56,879 bases of DNA from a virus. Lineage: Duplodnaviria > Heunggongvirae > Uroviricota > Caudoviricetes. The stretch lies in the IMG/VR virus record IMGVR_UViG_2541047887_000008, one strand, 5' to 3'. A program made the position numbers. This document shows positions 36,001-42,000 of the stretch, piece by piece (positions within the stretch are counted from its first letter, which is position 1; each line of letters begins with the position of its first letter).

Positions 36001-39000
36001 ACATCATCAATGTGAACCGGCTGAATGACGCCCTTTCCGGTCGACAGTGAGGCCATCATGTTCTGCACATCCTTCAGGGCATCCTCGGCTGCTTCACAGG
36101 TATACGCATCACGTAAATTCTGTAATGCTTCAGTCAGTGTTTTTTCTGCATCGCGCAGTGCGGCATTGCGCCGCAACGCTGCGACATAGTGCTCCAGTGA
36201 AGACTTCACCCAGGTTTTGCGTCCGGTGTCGGTAATCACCGGGGCAAGTTCCGGCATCTCATTGCACAGCAGTACGGGGTCAATGACGCCGGATATGCGA
36301 GCCTGTCTGCAAATCCCCGCGTAAATATCCCGGTACTGACGCACAAAAAATACATCCGCCGGAAGTGTGGCCAGAATATCCATCACTTCCGGATCGGCCC
36401 CACGCAGAAAAAACGCACCGATGACAGCGCCTTCCAGGTCATCGTTACGCCATGCCGGGGTGTTCTGGCTGGTCATGCGGCAACACCTCCGATACGAGAA
36501 CGGTAGCTGGGCCAGTTAAACGACAACCAGTTGCGCCCGCCATCGGTGATCCTGTCGGCAATCCGGGGACTGATGAACGCCCACAATTCTTCCGGTGAAA
36601 GATTGCTGATCAAGATAGTTGGCAAAATACCCTCATACCGGGCATTGATAATTTCCTGCAAAATGGCCATTTCAGCCGCACTGCCAAACTGAACGCCGAC
36701 TTCGTCGACAATCAGCAAATCCAGTGACGCATAATGCTCAATGACGTCATCCGCTGTTTTTTCACTGTCATTCCGCCAGCAGTTTTTCACAGCCCGGGTA
36801 AGGCGCATCACGTCGGTGATCTCCACACTGGCCAGATAGTTACGGATGATGTGTTTTGCCATTGATACCGCCAGATGATTTTTCCCGGTACCGCAACTGC
36901 CGGTCATAACAAGACTGGTACCGTTCTCCAGCATATCTGGCCAGTTCTCCGCATAGCGGCGACAGGCCGCAAGATTTCTGGCTGCGTCAGGATTAACCTC
37001 CAGATAATTATCAAACTCGCAGTCCCGAAAACGCAGAGCAATTCCGGCGTTATCAGTCAGTTCTTCCGCCTTGAGGGACGACAGTTCCATGGTCAAATCA
37101 CTGGCCTCAGCGATCAAGCAGTCAGGGCAGCATGAAATTTTTTCTCTGTCCTCGCCATTACGATCGATCCACACCAGTATATGCGTACGATATTTACCGT
37201 GTTTTTCGCAATATCCGCGACCTTCACGCATCAGGCAGGAACGATAAGGCCATGGCTTTTCGCCCTTCTGAGCAAATGCAATCTCTGCCCGTAACTCATC
37301 CATTTCTGCCCGTAACTCATCCATTCGCGCCTGTAGTCTTGTTTGTTTCTCACGTTGGTCAATCGTCATCATCGCTGTCACCTCAGAATGTCAATTTGTT
37401 ACTGGATTTACCGAATTTGTCAGACATGGCTCCCAGGCCAGCCAGGACATCGACCTGTCGCTGTCGCCCACCTCCGTGAGCGGCTGGCTGTTGCCAGTAA
37501 TCTTCGAAGTGACGATCGGGTCCAAAGAACGTCGCAGCCTGCTTCACGAACTGTGTGCCGGTATTTCCTGTAGCACGTACCCAGGCGGCATACCGCTTCA
37601 CGCCATCAAGCATGGTCTCCGGTTTTATTCCCTCCCTGATACGGGCTTTCCAGGCTTTGAAGGCCGCTGACTTGGAATTGCCACCAGCACGTTTGGGATA
37701 TTCCTGCCAGGCCTGTTCAAATTCCGGTGAATATTCCTGTCGGGCAGAACGCGCAGACGCGTCAGCGGATGCATCAATAGTGTTTTTAGTCTCCGTTGTA
37801 ATCTCTGTAGTAATCTCTGTATTTGTATCAACATTCGGCGTATCCCCTGTTCCGTTATGACGTCGGGGGGTGTTCCGTTTTAACGTAATAGCTGTATCGC
37901 TGATTGCATTATTGCTGTTACTTTCTGGCGAAACAGAAGAAGGTGTGGTGATGGCCGCAATTGCCTGTGGGTTGATCCCGACAAACAAAATATTGCTGCA
38001 TTTCACCCCATCGAGCATTTCCACCGTGCGTAAATCCAGAGTAATAAACCCTGCATCGCGCAGACGCTTCAGCGCATCTGCGGTTTCCCTTTTCCCGAAA
38101 CCAAACTGCTCAGCAAACGCCTGGTAGCTTCTTTGCAGTTTGTCGCCCTGAAAACGCTTGCGATATCCCAGCAACGCTCCGGTGTGCTCATCCCTGACCT
38201 CTGTCGGGCGGTACCAGTAAACGATCTCTGAAAGCAGAGCGATAGCCGTCGCATCCGGACGCCCACTGGGTAGTCGAATATATTTCCACCAGTTCGCAGG
38301 TGTAACATTGCCGGAAATATTAATTTGACCAATAGCCATAACTTCCGGTGTGGGGGCGTAACGGCTCATACAACCTCCTTCCGCGGCATGAGAATTGTGT
38401 AGCCACGCGCAGGTTGTAGTCTGGCTTTTGCATCAATAGTAAGCGTTGCAATTTTTCGGATATGAAGATAACCAGCTCTTTCCAGTGCCAGGGTTTCCCT
38501 GAATATCGCTTGCTTAGAACAACAGCAGAAATCAGCAAGCACCTGATGATCAATAACTCTCTCGCCTTCACCGTCTGAAGAACCCGACATCAAAACACGC
38601 AACATAATTAGGCGCTGAATCGGGTTATCGAAAGCACATCCGCACACAAACTGAAAACAGTTCACGCCACACCTCCCAGACGCTTAAACATTTTTCCAGA
38701 CAGAAATACCGCCAGAGGGTAACTGATGGTGTAGCTACGCCCCTGTAGTTCGCACACGACTTTCTGGCTTTCAGCGTTGACTAGGCAAACCCGCAGAACG
38801 TGACCGTTGCTGGTGGCGAACCACTGCCCCACACGGGGGCAACGGTTGTATCGGTGATACAGGGAATTAACGATGTGGCGGATCATGGACGCACCTCCAC
38901 CGTAGTTACGTATTTAACCGGGCTACCTTTCATTGAGATGGTTTCACACATCTCTGCCGCTTTCAGTTCCGCTGTTTTTCTGGATTTATAGCGACGGTGC

Positions 39001-42000
39001 CAGACAGATACATCCGTGCGAACTGATACATCGTTTCTGTATTCCGTAGTGGAGATGATGATTTCGTAACTAATCATGGGCGAACCTCCTTGTCAGAACC
39101 ATTCAGCCTGGAATCAACAAGTGCAGCGCCAAAAACAGCATCACCAACACGGTCGTACAGTTTGCTAGCCAGCGGAGATTCAACGGCCTTAAGCATTGGA
39201 TAAAGCTGGCTTGTCCAGATTTGATGGATTTCACGCAAATGCAGGTATACGCCTCTGGCGTTTCGTGCGACAGCTGACATATCAGACGCATCGGCACCTG
39301 ATAAACTCTTCTCCATCAGGTTAAAGGCGTTGATGTATGCCTCTTTGAACCGGGCTGCACGTTTGCCAGTAAAGCCCATAGCAAGGAACGCGAAGCCATC
39401 ACGGGTGATTTGATAGCAAGGTAGTTTGCGGCCTGTGCAATCGGTGTAATCACTCACCGAAAAATTGCGGGCAGTGAATGATGCGGAGCATTCAAGCGTG
39501 CGGATCTTTTTCAGTACATCGTCATGACGCTTGGAGAAGAAGTTGGCAACAGCCAGGGATGAAGTAACAGCCTGACCATCAACGATGGCAATTTCAGGTT
39601 GAGTGAGGGTTGGGATCGTAGCCATGATGGCAGCCTCCGTTGACTGTGGAAAACTTCCACCACCGGAGCTGCGAAACTCACTGGTGGCAGACTGAACAGG
39701 GTTCGCAGTACCGGCGTCAACGGAGACCGGCGAGCCTTTCGGCTCCCCTGCCCAGCCCACCATAATTCTGGCGTGCGTGAGCGCGGACGATAAAAAAGAC
39801 GCTGGCGCGTCATATATCGCCGTTGACAATTCCGGGCTGCGACCCCCGGCACCCGCTTTATAAGGTGCAGAGACAGTGTAACGTCCCGAAATTGCAGAAT
39901 CAATATTTGGTCTTGAAATGATCATATAGCTGCTGATATCTTTAGAACTGTTCTTGGATGTTTCGGAGCCGTTTTATGCGAAACAGCTCCCCGTTATTGA
40001 TGTTGAGTGAGCCGGGTTACTCCCGGCTTTTTTTCACCGCTGCCAACCAATAACCTGAAATAACCCCATTTTCGGGTGATACCAGCGAGTCCCTCGCGGT
40101 TCTGCTTCCTCCATAACCCGATAAAAAGCAGCCATAAACGGTTCCACAGCAACAATTGCGCGACGTGACAACAATCCGTCCGGCGTCATGAACTCATGGG
40201 TGTCTGTAGGAATCTGATAGGCGTTCACCAGATTGCGGCATTTATCATCTGACAAACCGGTTTTTGCTTTCAGTTGGCGATATCCGGCATAGCCCTCACG
40301 AATAGTGCCCTTTTTAATTTGCTCGACTGTTTCAGCAACGTGGCTGACTTTTTCTTCCACCTGAGTGATCCGTTTCTGTTGGCGAACGGCTTCAAGAGCC
40401 ATCGCGGCAACCATTTCGATTTCGCTCATTGGCTTACGGATCTGTTCTTCCAGTTCGCGCCAGCGATCTACCAGGCGAGCAGTGAATTCAGGACAGAGCT
40501 GTGCGACGACAATGATGCTGTCGCGCTTACCTTGTTCTCCTTCAAACAGGTAATGCTCATATTGAACTTTAAAACCTAAGTTATTGATTCTTTCGGAAAC
40601 CTCAATTTGAGGAGACCGGACAACGCCACCTTTGGCTAATGTTTCAATAGTGCGTTTCACATTGTCATGACGTTTACCCACCAGCTCTGCGATCTCAACG
40701 CTGGTCATGGATGCTTTGCCGTTAAAAATTGCGGTGTTCATTGTTGGTCTCCTGTGGGCTTGTCATCTTCTGTATTCGCTAGACTTGGGTGTGTATATGG
40801 AATGCTCGGATCCAGATGACAAAGAATGGCAACATCCTCCGGAACACCTCGCGTTTTCCACTTTCCAACACCTTGACTGCCACGAGGCCTTCCTTTCTTT
40901 GGGAACCTGCGACCAATAGCGGCATTGGTTTTAAATTGAATTTTTAATATTTCATAAAGGGTCATTCTTTAGTCTCACACCAGATACTTTGTTATCCAAC
41001 GATGTTAACCACGGGAATCCAAAGTATCAAGAAATTCTGTTACTTTAGTATCAACAGCCATGAGAGGAGAAGAAAAATGAAGTCTTTAGGTGAACGTCTC
41101 ATCAACGCACGGCAAAAAGCTGGGTTAACACAAGATGCGTTGGCTAAAAAAGCTGGGATCACCAGAGTTGCAATCAGTAAAGCCGAGCAAGGCCTTACAA
41201 AAAGTTTCAACGGTGACACCCTTTTTAAAGTTGCAGCTGCACTGCGGTGTTCACCGCAGTGGCTTCAGAACGGAGATGAAAAAGATAAGCATTGGGAAAA
41301 TAATGTTAAGAGCTGCCCACAGAGAGACACAGCACACTCTTACCCTGTAATTAACTGGGTTCAGGCAGGATTATTCGCAACTTCTGGTGATGACTACAAC
41401 ATGTATGATCAGGATAATTGGAGGCATTCTGTAAAATACGCTGGTGAGAGGGGGTTCTGGCTGGAAGTGCACGGAGACTCAATGACTTCGCCCGTAGGAA
41501 TAACATTTCCTGAAGGAATGTCGATCCTTGTCAACCCAGATAAAGAAGTTTTTTCAGGGTGTTACGTCATCGCCAGAAAAAAATCGACCAATGAAGCAAC
41601 ATTCAAAAAATATATTTCTGACATGGGAAAGGCGTTTCTAAAGCCCCTTAATCCACAATATCCAATCATAGAAATGGACAATGATTGCGAAATAGTAGGT
41701 GTTGTGGTTGATGCCAGGTGGGATATTTTCTGACCAGACACAAAACACAAAAAGAAACCAAAGTATCAAAAATCACTTGCCACACCTTGATACCTTAGTT
41801 ACCATAAAACAAAGTTCGTAACTGAGGTATCATCTCATGATCAATAAAGCTACAACTCTTGACTGTCTCGAAGAACTGAAAAACCTCGGCAGCCTCATTA
41901 CACTAATAGCAAAAGCAACACCTGATGCTACGCTCTCTAGCGATATAGAGTCATGCGCAGGACTGGCATGGGATATGACAAATAGCATATCCAGAAAGCT

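What the first reader, a model, noticed from the sequence alone, without database searches (positions are those of the whole stretch)
38366..40965. Rightward early operon begins with two Rha-family genes and lacks a recognisable Cro or cII
Divergent from cI, the first ORF (40738..40965, 75 aa) is basic with no obvious HTH and a weak Shine-Dalgarno. It is followed by two Rha/antirepressor-like genes (40034..40741 and 39074..39625) and three small unknowns before the replication genes. The lytic/lysogenic switch of this prophage may not be lambda-like.
Basis: partly seen in the sequence, partly recalled or inferred. Interest (0 to 1): 0.5.

Follow-up and report, generated by a model that had tools for sequence, protein, structure and literature searches.

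The report
Lambda-like switch plus RNA-controlled antirepressor

Summary

- **Cro:** the 75-aa protein is a Cro-fold protein. Its confident AlphaFold model matches N15, Xfaso1 and P22 Cro best. Distant homologues hit Pfam P22_Cro. In other genera it is always the first gene divergent from an HTH+S24 repressor.
- **Operators:** cI is flanked by two triplets of GATAC-N4-GTATC sites overlapping PR and PL, a classical lambdoid OL/OR layout.
- **cII:** none was found. The 99-aa protein is a winged-helix protein, not CII.
- **RNA genes:** the 400-bp "gap" before the second Rha gene holds IsrK (39792-39868) and a C4 antisense RNA (39680-39767). The C4 loop is complementary to the Shine-Dalgarno of the Rha gene. 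IsrK carries decoy copies of both targets.
- **Covariation:** across 37 distinct related loci and 15 other species, the C4/IsrK/target sequences co-vary three ways. The logic matches P1/P7 immI and Gifsy-1 IsrK-AnrP.

Verdict: a known kind of system, well supported, of modest interest.

The parts
41077..41733 (+). cI repressor (218 aa from the internal ATG with a GAGGAG Shine-Dalgarno): HTH_3 plus Peptidase_S24, LexA-like and self-cleaving type
   Evidence: Pfam HTH_3 2e-14 and Peptidase_S24 4e-22. RefSeq annotates 657 bp as 'LexA family protein'. AG, GDSM and FKK motifs are visible in the translation.
40983..41052 (.). OR: three 14-bp GATAC-N4-GTATC-like sites (40983-40996, 41015-41028, 41039-41052), centre spacing 32 and 24 bp
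   Evidence: Pattern search: 28 hits in the window against 15.7 expected, with six clustered around cI. Repeats. The same motif and spacing sit next to the cI/75-aa pair in a Photorhabdus prophage, phiP27 and an Stx1 phage, and are absent where another cI/Cro pair is present.
41754..41831 (.). OL: three further sites (41754-41767, 41789-41802, 41818-41831) just after the cI stop
   Evidence: They overlap the PL-like promoter.
41002..41030 (-). PR-like promoter TTGATA-17-TAACAT; its -35 overlaps the middle OR site
   Evidence: consensus scan only.
41777..41805 (+). PL-like promoter TTGCCA-17-TACCAT inside OL
   Evidence: consensus scan only.
40738..40965 (-). Cro-fold protein, 75 aa, with a 5-residue insertion (KKGRP) in the helix-turn-helix turn; first gene of the rightward operon
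40034..40741 (-). Roi-like Rha-domain DNA-binding protein, 235 aa; its start overlaps the cro-like stop (ATGA)
   Evidence: Pfam Phage_pRha 40.2 bits. phrog_63. 99% identical to the protein annotated 'Roi' in phage PhiR49_2; the N-terminal 100 aa are 58-70% identical to Roi proteins of Stx and HK phages.
39875..39903 (-). PisrK promoter TTGATT-17-TACACT, 6 nt upstream of the isrK 5' end; the conserved module begins exactly at its -35
   Evidence: Read from the sequence. Nearly invariant in 37 loci. Upstream flanks diverge into at least 7 contexts right at the -35.
39792..39868 (-). IsrK sRNA (= c4-a1b1 element) with intrinsic terminator GACGC-gcca-GCGTC-U6; carries a1 (39837-39843) and b1 (39817-39827)
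   Evidence: Rfam RF01394 58.7 bits. Terminator. a1-a2 and b1-b2 covariation.
39680..39767 (-). C4 antisense RNA; b2 is the hairpin-2 loop (39716-39726), a2 is the single strand (39702-39708)
   Evidence: Rfam RF01695 78.8 bits. Folds to the family structure, z = -4.3. Stems covary.
39631..39675 (-). C4 targets: a' (39669-39675, UUCGCAG) and b' (39634-39644, GUCAACGGAGG, which is the Shine-Dalgarno of the Rha start at 39625)
   Evidence: 14-nt duplex between C4 39716-39729 and 39631-39644. b2-b' is 93% paired, with 7 of 11 pairs compensatory. a2-a' gives 7 pairs in every type. Holds in 15 other species.
39074..39925 (-). Rha-domain putative antirepressor (AnrP-like). Three in-frame starts: 39925 (283 aa, PR transcripts only), 39763 (229 aa, equivalent to Gifsy-1 orf45, +106 from the isrK start) and 39625 (183 aa, GGAGG Shine-Dalgarno, the C4 target)
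   Evidence: Pfam Phage_pRha 103 bits at residues 121-206; Phage_ASH at residues 16-111, which is the translated isrK+C4 region. The frame stays open in all 16 variants.
38883..39077 (-). 64-aa protein, unknown function, start overlaps the Rha stop; travels with the Rha module
   Evidence: phrog_7046. Same order in PhiR49_2. Sits between tandem modules in L082.
38662..38886 (-). 74-aa protein, unknown function
   Evidence: phrog_1153; weak DUF4222.
38366..38665 (-). 99-aa winged-helix DNA-binding protein, related to the N-terminus of phage replication initiators; not CII
35076..38369 (-). Replication module: initiator (37383-38369), DnaC-like loader (36473-37381), DnaB-like helicase (35076-36476)
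   Evidence: PHROG hits. RefSeq names.

Best explanation
The region is the immunity and early-right segment of a phiP27/Stx-like lambdoid E. coli prophage. It has two regulatory layers.

**Layer 1: a lambda-type switch.**
- A LexA-like, self-cleaving CI binds three operators on each side of its gene (OR, OL). It represses PR and PL.
- The first PR gene encodes a 75-aa all-alpha Cro-fold protein that is expected to bind the same operators.
- The cro-like gene is translationally coupled to a Roi-like Rha-domain DNA-binding protein.

**Layer 2: a P1 immI / Gifsy-1 isrK-type RNA cassette inserted in the PR operon.**
- Its own promoter, PisrK, makes the 77-nt IsrK.
- Read-through transcripts, and PR transcripts, carry the C4 antisense RNA and the Rha-domain antirepressor-like gene.
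- C4 pairs through its loop (b2) and a single-stranded stretch (a2) with b' and a'. The b' site is the Shine-Dalgarno of the Rha gene, so pairing blocks its translation.
- IsrK carries near-copies of both targets (a1, b1, with the Shine-Dalgarno spoiled). It can pair with the same C4 nucleotides, in cis or in trans, and so relieve the block.

**Shown here:** the sequence features, the family matches, the fold, the synteny and the three-way covariation.

**Inferred:** operator binding by CI and the 75-aa protein; RNA processing; the direction of regulation; and that the Rha protein acts as an antirepressor that promotes induction, by analogy with Gifsy-1 AnrP and P1 Ant.

No CII analogue was identified. 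How lysogeny is established remains open.
For: **Cro**
- AlphaFold model with pLDDT 87.8.
- The family profile reaches insertion-free relatives at E 1.6e-11 to 4e-4. These hit PF14549 P22_Cro, one of them above the gathering score.
- In Photorhabdus and Providencia the homologue is always the first gene divergent from an HTH+S24 repressor, with unrelated downstream genes.

**Operators**
- Two triplets flank cI and overlap PR/PL-like promoters.
- The same motif with the same 24/32 spacing occurs in Photorhabdus, and it is absent from PhiR49_2, which carries another cI/Cro pair.

**RNAs**
- Rfam isrK and C4 score above gathering in the window and in phiP27, Stx1 and PhiR49_2.
- The C4 fold has z = -4.3.
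- A 14-nt C4:Shine-Dalgarno duplex is present.
- On 37 distinct loci, a1-a2 is 98% paired with 6 of 7 pairs compensatory, and b1-b2 is 95% paired with 8 of 11 compensatory. b2-b' is 93% paired with 7 of 11 compensatory. Sliding the partners drops pairing to 34-48%.
- There are 13 a/b combinations in these loci.
- Cognate b2-b' pairing ends 6-11 nt before the start codon in most of 15 other species, where the longest match found is the b' site; in L097, L102 and L112 it lay elsewhere.

**Literature**
- Gifsy-1 IsrK activates anrP translation, and AnrP triggers induction. Helix b-I, proven there by G28/C162 and G31/C159 compensatory mutants, corresponds to a1-a2 here (PMC4825925).
- P1 Ant is controlled by C4 RNA and Icd (PMC8201110).
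- APSE phages carry c4 plus isrK with a'/b' sites upstream of an adjacent BRO-N gene (PMC7313666).
Against: - The window protein itself has no Pfam Cro hit and no PDB sequence hit.
- Operators and promoters are consensus-level predictions only.
- The Rha domain is a DNA-binding-type domain, and no Rha protein of this subfamily has been shown here to bind a repressor.
- The Gifsy-1 authors explain IsrK action through refolding around the orf45 ribosome-binding site. They saw no change at the anrP ribosome-binding site, and constitutive STnc1160 (the C4 equivalent) made IsrK toxicity stronger rather than weaker. That does not fit a simple C4-represses / IsrK-titrates model.
- In Gifsy-1 the cassette lies next to antQ, not in the early operon.
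Confidence: 0.8

Rival explanations
1. One reading: the phage lacks Cro and CII and uses Rha-family regulators in their place, so the switch is not lambda-like.
For: No Pfam hit for the 75-aa protein and no CII anywhere. Two Rha-domain genes follow directly.
Against: Cro fold, Cro-family distant homologues and cI-linked synteny. Tripartite OL/OR around an S24 repressor. In relatives the cI/75-aa pair occurs without any Rha gene downstream, so the Rha genes are not part of the core switch.
Confidence: 0.08
2. The 283-aa ORF (Ash + Rha domains, 39074-39925) is simply one protein-coding gene, and the isrK/C4 matches are by-products of conserved coding sequence.
For: The frame is open through isrK and C4 in all 16 variants. 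All four net indels preserve it, including a -1/-2 compensating pair. In several genomic contexts the long ORF has its own Shine-Dalgarno and an ATGA overlap with the upstream gene. Pfam has a protein family (Phage_ASH) on this stretch, and RefSeq annotates the long form.
Against: The peptide is not conserved where the RNA elements vary, yet base-pairing is kept by double changes in three separate places. A conserved promoter and intrinsic terminator lie inside the 'ORF'. IsrK and its read-through product STnc1160 are observed RNAs in Salmonella. The most likely reading is both: RNA genes over which an open frame is maintained.
Confidence: 0.07
3. The cassette works purely as described for Gifsy-1. 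IsrK in trans refolds the long transcript to open the upstream-ORF ribosome-binding site (here the AUG at 39763), and translation then runs into the Rha frame. C4 is not a repressor of the internal Shine-Dalgarno.
For: The AUG lies at +106 here against +107 in Gifsy-1, and the a1-a2 helix is the same. The upstream frame is conserved open. Constitutive STnc1160 did not relieve IsrK toxicity.
Against: It does not explain why the C4 loop and the Shine-Dalgarno-proximal b' site co-vary in 37 loci and 15 species. That is the P1 c4 mechanism. The two models are compatible and may act together.
Confidence: 0.3

Closest known systems
Lambdoid immunity region (lambda / P22 / N15 type: CI with S24 domain, tripartite OL and OR, Cro)
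   Same: Divergent cI and cro-position genes. Three operators in a 111-bp intergenic region, three more beyond cI, overlapping PR and PL. LexA-like cleavable repressor. All-alpha Cro fold as in P22, N15 and Xfaso1 Cro.
   Different: The Cro-fold protein has a 5-residue insertion in the HTH turn and is not recognised by Pfam. No CII or CIII was found. The first gene of the PL side is a 166-aa HTH protein, and nothing N-like was recognised there.
Phage P1/P7 immI operon (c4 antisense RNA - icd - ant)
   Same: C4-family RNA (RF01695) co-transcribed with its target. Two short segments (a2, b2) pair with a'/b' over the ribosome-binding site of the downstream gene. Upstream a1/b1 copies are present. 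Specificity varies between phages (heteroimmunity). In-frame long and short forms of the downstream protein recall Ant1/Ant2 (from my own knowledge of P1).
   Different: The regulated protein is a Rha-domain protein, not P1 Ant. There is no separate icd; the leader ORF is fused in frame. The cassette sits inside a lambdoid PR operon rather than being a stand-alone operon of a plasmid prophage.
Salmonella Gifsy-1 isrK-orf45-anrP locus (Hershko-Shalev et al. 2016, PMC4825925)
   Same: isrK family match, own promoter and leaky terminator. A processed downstream RNA (STnc1160 there, C4 here). An upstream AUG at about +106/107. IsrK pairs with the 3' part of the C4 region (helix b-I = a1-a2). An antirepressor-like gene lies downstream.
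   Different: Here the leader ORF has no stop and continues into the Rha frame. The location is the early-right operon, not next to the late antiterminator antQ. Sequence relatedness of the Rha protein to AnrP was not measured here.
HK022 Roi / phi80 Rha (Rha-family DNA-binding regulators)
   Same: The 235-aa protein is 99% identical to a phage protein annotated Roi, and its N-terminus is 58-70% identical to Roi proteins of Stx and HK phages. Both window proteins pass the Pfam Rha cut-off.
   Different: In most lambdoid phages roi lies in the nin region; here it directly follows cro. The function of Rha/Roi beyond DNA binding and an IHF-linked phenotype (my own knowledge) is not settled.

Membership tests
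Cro (all-alpha, P22_Cro PF14549 type) | Sequence match to the family model above the curated cut-off | tested here: not met
   The window protein has no Cro hit. Distant homologues found with its profile do hit PF14549: P0052 at 31.2 bits against a cut-off of 30.2, four others at 24-27 bits. Membership by sequence is therefore only transitive.
Cro (all-alpha, P22_Cro PF14549 type) | Small helical HTH fold like P22/N15 Cro | tested here: met
Cro (all-alpha, P22_Cro PF14549 type) | First gene of the operon divergent from the repressor gene, sharing an operator region | tested here: met
   The linkage is conserved in Photorhabdus and Providencia.
Cro (all-alpha, P22_Cro PF14549 type) | Binds the CI operators and represses the maintenance promoter | not testable with these tools
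   Needs EMSA or a reporter assay.
Lambda CII (PF05269) | Sequence or fold similarity to CII in an early-right gene | tested here: not met
   No PF05269 hit at E<=1 for any early ORF. tblastn of lambda CII against the window gave a best E of 1.1, elsewhere in the window. The 99-aa protein is a winged helix. The 64- and 74-aa proteins were not modelled.
LexA-like phage repressor (lambda CI type) | N-terminal HTH plus C-terminal S24 self-cleavage domain | tested here: met
   HTH_3 2e-14 and Peptidase_S24 4e-22.
Rha family (PF09669) | Pfam Phage_pRha above the gathering score | tested here: met
   40.2 and 103 bits against a cut-off of 29.9.
C4 antisense RNA (RF01695) | Covariance-model score above gathering, and the family fold | tested here: met
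   78.8 bits against 45, full-length match. MFE equals the family structure, z = -4.3. Stems covary.
C4 antisense RNA (RF01695) | a2/b2 complementary to a'/b' at the ribosome-binding site of the co-transcribed downstream gene | tested here: met
C4 antisense RNA (RF01695) | Processed from the precursor and represses the antirepressor in vivo | not testable with these tools
   Needs Northern blots or RNA-seq and translational fusions.
isrK (RF01394) / c4-a1b1 (RF03163) | Model score above gathering | tested here: met
   isrK scores 58.7 bits against 50. c4-a1b1 itself was not reported for the window, but it overlaps the isrK hits in four related loci.
isrK (RF01394) / c4-a1b1 (RF03163) | Own promoter and Rho-independent terminator; a1/b1 complementary to C4 a2/b2 | tested here: met
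   Promoter read from the sequence and conserved. Terminator. Covariation.
Antirepressor (functional class; P1 Ant, Gifsy AnrP) | Binds and inactivates a prophage repressor | not testable with these tools
   Inferred only from context and the literature.

The most novel reading that the evidence does not exclude
IsrK (the a1b1 element) may act as a built-in decoy that titrates C4. The two short pairing segments would then behave as independent, freely recombining 'barcodes'. At least 5 a-types and 7 b-types, in 13 combinations, occur among close E. coli relatives, and further types occur in other genera. These barcodes would define many RNA-level heteroimmunity classes for antirepressor control among co-resident lambdoid and Stx prophages. 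The same DNA is also kept as an open reading frame: the Pfam 'Ash' domain is its translation. PR-driven transcripts could then bypass the RNA lock by translating through it. That would be a dual-coding regulatory device not described for P1 or Gifsy-1.
Probability: 0.3. Interest if true: 0.55.

Novelty: new member of a known kind. Interest (0 to 1): 0.3.

Why it matters
- It corrects the reading of a widespread immunity module. The same sequence is 100% identical in several clinical E. coli genomes, and close relatives occur in phiP27 and Stx1 phages.
- A protein family filed everywhere as 'hypothetical' (phrog_4749) can be named a Cro-fold protein.
- A second, RNA-based control over an antirepressor-like gene sits inside the early operon of these prophages. 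Such cassettes decide whether co-resident prophages, including Shiga-toxin phages, are induced together.
- The barcode-like variation of the pairing segments gives a direct handle to test cross-talk between prophages.
- Automatic annotation currently hides two RNA genes under a 283-aa ORF and a Pfam 'Ash' domain.

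Tried and rejected
- **Direct sequence searches for the 75-aa protein found nothing useful.** Pfam gave only a chance hit. phmmer and a profile search against PDB sequences gave nothing or a spurious Nup358 match.
- **The CII hypothesis for the 99-aa protein was rejected.** It is a winged helix with a PHROG match to replication-initiator N-termini. A PDB profile search gave nothing.
- **No LexA box at PisrK.** I looked for one because Gifsy antirepressors are LexA-controlled; none was found. There is also no CI operator at PisrK.
- **The a2-a' pairs could not be counted with the pair-counting tool.** MAFFT puts the a' types out of register. I used my own script instead. 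There the cognate versus non-cognate contrast is clear for b but weak for a, because a conserved GGTGGTGGA stretch gives chance matches.
- **Old P1 papers are not held** (Citron and Schuster 1992; Heinrich 1994). P1 details beyond rest on my own knowledge.
- **Three literature look-ups and two contig look-ups failed on time-outs or an unresponsive machine**. The Weinberg 2010 supplement was never read.
- **The identity of the Rha protein to Gifsy-1 AnrP was not measured.**

Full report
**What is in the sequence.**

The minus strand from 40965 down to 35076 carries a tight run of ORFs:
- 75 aa (40738-40965)
- 235 aa (40034-40741)
- 64 aa, 74 aa and 99 aa
- a replication initiator, a DnaC-like loader and a DnaB-like helicase

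Neighbouring genes overlap by ATGA-type junctions. The one exception is the gap between the 235-aa gene and the long ORF.

On the other strand lie cI (real start 41077, 218 aa, HTH_3 plus Peptidase_S24) and a 166-aa HTH gene.

The stretch 38366-41733 is 100% identical to prophages in several complete E. coli genomes. RefSeq names the genes there 'hypothetical', 'Rha family' and 'LexA family protein'. Close relatives are Stx1a phages, phiP27 and PhiR49_2.

The 75-aa product has pI 9.5 and a poor Shine-Dalgarno. Both larger proteins pass the Pfam Rha cut-off.

**The core switch is lambda-like.**

A 14-bp palindrome-like motif, GATAC-N4-GTATC, occurs three times in the 111 bp between the 75-aa gene and cI (40983-96, 41015-28, 41039-52). 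It occurs three more times just after the cI stop (41754-67, 41789-802, 41818-31). In the whole window there are 28 matches at up to 2 mismatches, against 15.7 expected, and six of them fall in these two triplets.

The triplets overlap a PR-like promoter (TTGATA-17-TAACAT, 41030-41002, minus strand) and a PL-like promoter (TTGCCA-17-TACCAT, 41777-41805, plus strand). These are consensus-level promoter predictions.

The same motif in the same 3+3 layout, with the same 24/32-bp spacing, sits around the homologous cI/75-aa pair in a Photorhabdus prophage, in phiP27 and in an Stx1 phage. It is missing from PhiR49_2, which keeps the downstream genes but carries a different cI/Cro pair.

**The 75-aa protein is a Cro-fold protein.**

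A profile search of 1.8 billion representatives finds ten more distant relatives at E from 1.6e-11 to 4e-4. These have an ordinary HTH turn. Seven of the ten hit Pfam P22_Cro, one of them above the curated cut-off.

The alignment shows that the window family differs by a five-residue insertion (KKGRP) in the turn between the two HTH helices.

In Photorhabdus and Providencia the homologue is always the first gene divergent from an HTH+S24 repressor. It is followed there by quite different replication genes and no Rha gene.

Fold, remote homology, position and co-inheritance with cI and its operators all point to Cro. DNA binding itself is inferred.

**No CII.**

No early ORF hits Pfam Phage_CII.

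The 64- and 74-aa proteins remain unknown.

Rfam finds isrK (39792-39868, 58.7 bits, cut-off 50) and C4 antisense RNA (39680-39767, 78.8 bits, cut-off 45) on the minus strand.
- isrK starts 6 nt after a TTGATT-17-TACACT promoter (39903-39875).
- isrK ends in a GC hairpin followed by six U.
- C4 folds into the family structure with z = -4.3.

The loop of C4 hairpin 2 forms a 14-nt duplex with 39631-39644, which is the GGAGG Shine-Dalgarno of the ATG at 39625. A second, single-stranded C4 segment (CUGCGAA) matches UUCGCAG just downstream of C4. IsrK contains near-copies of both targets: UCGCAG in a hairpin loop, and GUCAACGGCGA, which is the target with the Shine-Dalgarno spoiled.

**Comparative test of the pairing.**

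I collected 80 related viral loci. These gave 37 distinct upstream regions falling into 13 combinations of at least 5 'a' types and 7 'b' types. The pairing partners change together.

| Interaction | Cells paired | Pairs with compensatory change |
|---|---|---|
| IsrK a1 - C4 a2 | 98% | 6 of 7 |
| IsrK b1 - C4 b2 | 95% | 8 of 11 |
| C4 b2 - b' at the Shine-Dalgarno | 93% | 7 of 11 |

- C4's own stems are 100% paired or nearly so, with compensatory changes.
- Sliding the partners by 1-3 columns drops pairing to 34-48%. No shuffle out of 500 reaches the observed covariation score.
- The a2-a' pairing shows 7 contiguous pairs in every type.

In one genome per species, the same isrK-C4-Rha layout occurs in Serratia, Citrobacter, Edwardsiella, Pantoea, Erwinia, Symbiopectobacterium, Aeromonas, Vibrio and Endozoicomonas. 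Most of these loci have their own b sequence. In most of the 15 loci the longest C4 match downstream (7-15 nt) is the b' site and ends 6-11 nt before the start codon. In L097, L102 and L112 the longest match lay elsewhere, and b' was identified by eye in the first two.

Rfam's own family RF03163, 'a1, b1 targets of C4 antisense RNA', overlaps the isrK hits in four of those loci. The identity of IsrK with the a1b1 element is therefore already in the database.

**How it most likely works.**

This is the logic of the P1/P7 immI operon. There the C4 RNA, cut from the same transcript as its target, blocks expression of the antirepressor Ant via Icd (PMC8201110; Citron and Schuster 1990 as cited).

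It is also the logic of the Gifsy-1 isrK-orf45-anrP locus. There IsrK in trans switches on translation of the antirepressor-like AnrP, and AnrP triggers prophage induction (PMC4825925). The helix those authors proved by compensatory mutants (G28/C162, G31/C159) is the a1-a2 pairing seen here. Their first orf45 AUG at +107 corresponds to the AUG at 39763, which is +106.

I infer the following sequence of events:
- C4 keeps the Rha-domain gene untranslated in the lysogen, and on superinfection by phages of the same a/b type.
- IsrK, by pairing with the same C4 nucleotides, relieves this block.
- The Rha protein promotes the lytic pathway as an antirepressor.

The direction of the effects and the protein's target are not shown here. 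The Gifsy-1 paper reports one observation that does not fit a simple titration model: constitutive STnc1160 enhanced IsrK toxicity.

**An open frame over the RNA genes.**

The Rha reading frame stays open upstream through C4 and isrK in all 16 distinct variants. The other two frames usually contain stops. All four net indels preserve the frame, including a -1/-2 pair that rewrites about 15 codons in between.

In several genomic contexts the long ORF has its own GGAGG and an ATGA overlap with the preceding gene.

The Pfam 'Phage_ASH' match (residues 16-111 of the 283-aa ORF, nucleotides 39593-39880) is exactly the translation of isrK, C4 and the target region.

The peptide is not conserved where the RNA elements vary. 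What seems to be selected is translatability, not a protein domain. This resembles the leader ORFs icd and orf45, but here the leader is fused in frame to the Rha gene.

**Comparison and novelty.**

Every component belongs to a described family: lambdoid CI/Cro/operators, Roi/Rha, isrK/c4-a1b1 and C4.
- The cassette occurs in 191 phage records, including Stx phages, SfV, ST64B and APSE.
- In APSE the a' and b' sites have been annotated.
- The 235-aa protein is 'Roi' in other annotations.

What is new is modest:
- the assignment of an unannotated protein family as Cro-fold with an unusual HTH-turn insertion;
- the placement of the cassette inside the PR operon;
- the size of the a/b specificity repertoire;
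- the maintained open frame.

I rate the finding as a new member of a known kind, with interest 0.3. It is partly right in that no CII was found and a P1-like layer is present.

Noticed in passing
window 39593-39880 (-): The Pfam 'Phage_ASH' domain match is the conceptual translation of isrK, C4 and the C4 target region. The frame is kept open in all variants, including by a compensating -1/-2 indel pair. This suggests a dual-use (RNA plus translated leader) stretch, or a Pfam family built on RNA genes.
   Followed up: partly
window 39913-40040 (+): Between the Roi-like gene and PisrK, on the opposite strand, lies a promoter-like site with an extended -10 (TTGAAA-18-TATCTT, 39913-39942). About 70 nt further on there is a strong intrinsic terminator (40009-40029 plus a T-run). 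The ~90-nt stretch folds with z = -3.1. This is a possible small plus-strand RNA. It is present only in loci that have the Roi-like gene upstream, and it has no Rfam match.
   Followed up: partly
window 41837-42337 (+): The first gene after OL/PL, in lambda's N position, is a 166-aa protein with a C-terminal HTH_3 domain similar to the P22 C2 and 434 repressor heads. It has a strong match to a PHROG called 'CII-like regulator'. A 160-aa HTH protein occupies the same place next to cI in Providencia. Its role is unknown.
   Followed up: partly
L100 1367-1453; L113 1347-1437: In Providencia and 'Ca. Phlomobacter', an sRNA-Xcc1 family RNA (RF02221) sits in front of the Rha-gene relative, at the position that C4 occupies in the other loci. 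This hints at an analogous RNA lock of a different family.
   Followed up: no
L061, L082, L099 (299-493 and 1258-1446), L136 (1367-1445 and 1614-1810): Some prophages carry two isrK-C4-Rha cassettes in tandem. In L082 the flank between the two holds the 64-aa gene. Whether the two copies in a pair differ in a/b type was not examined.
   Followed up: no
window 38366-38665 and 37383-38369 (-): A stand-alone 99-aa winged-helix protein resembling the N-terminus of one family of phage replication initiators (phrog_4617) directly precedes, with an ATGA overlap, a 328-aa initiator of another family (phrog_270). The Stx1 and PhiR49_2 relatives lack it.
   Followed up: partly
window 29293-29809 (-) and 408-606 (-): Rfam also finds STnc100 next to three tRNA genes (29293-29809), and an IS009 RNA motif at 408-606. 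Both lie elsewhere in the prophage.
   Followed up: no
L002 5055-5726 (phiP27): In phiP27 an extra 672-bp gene (L13) on the opposite strand is inserted between the cro-like gene and the Roi-like gene. This breaks the ATGA coupling seen in the window.
   Followed up: no
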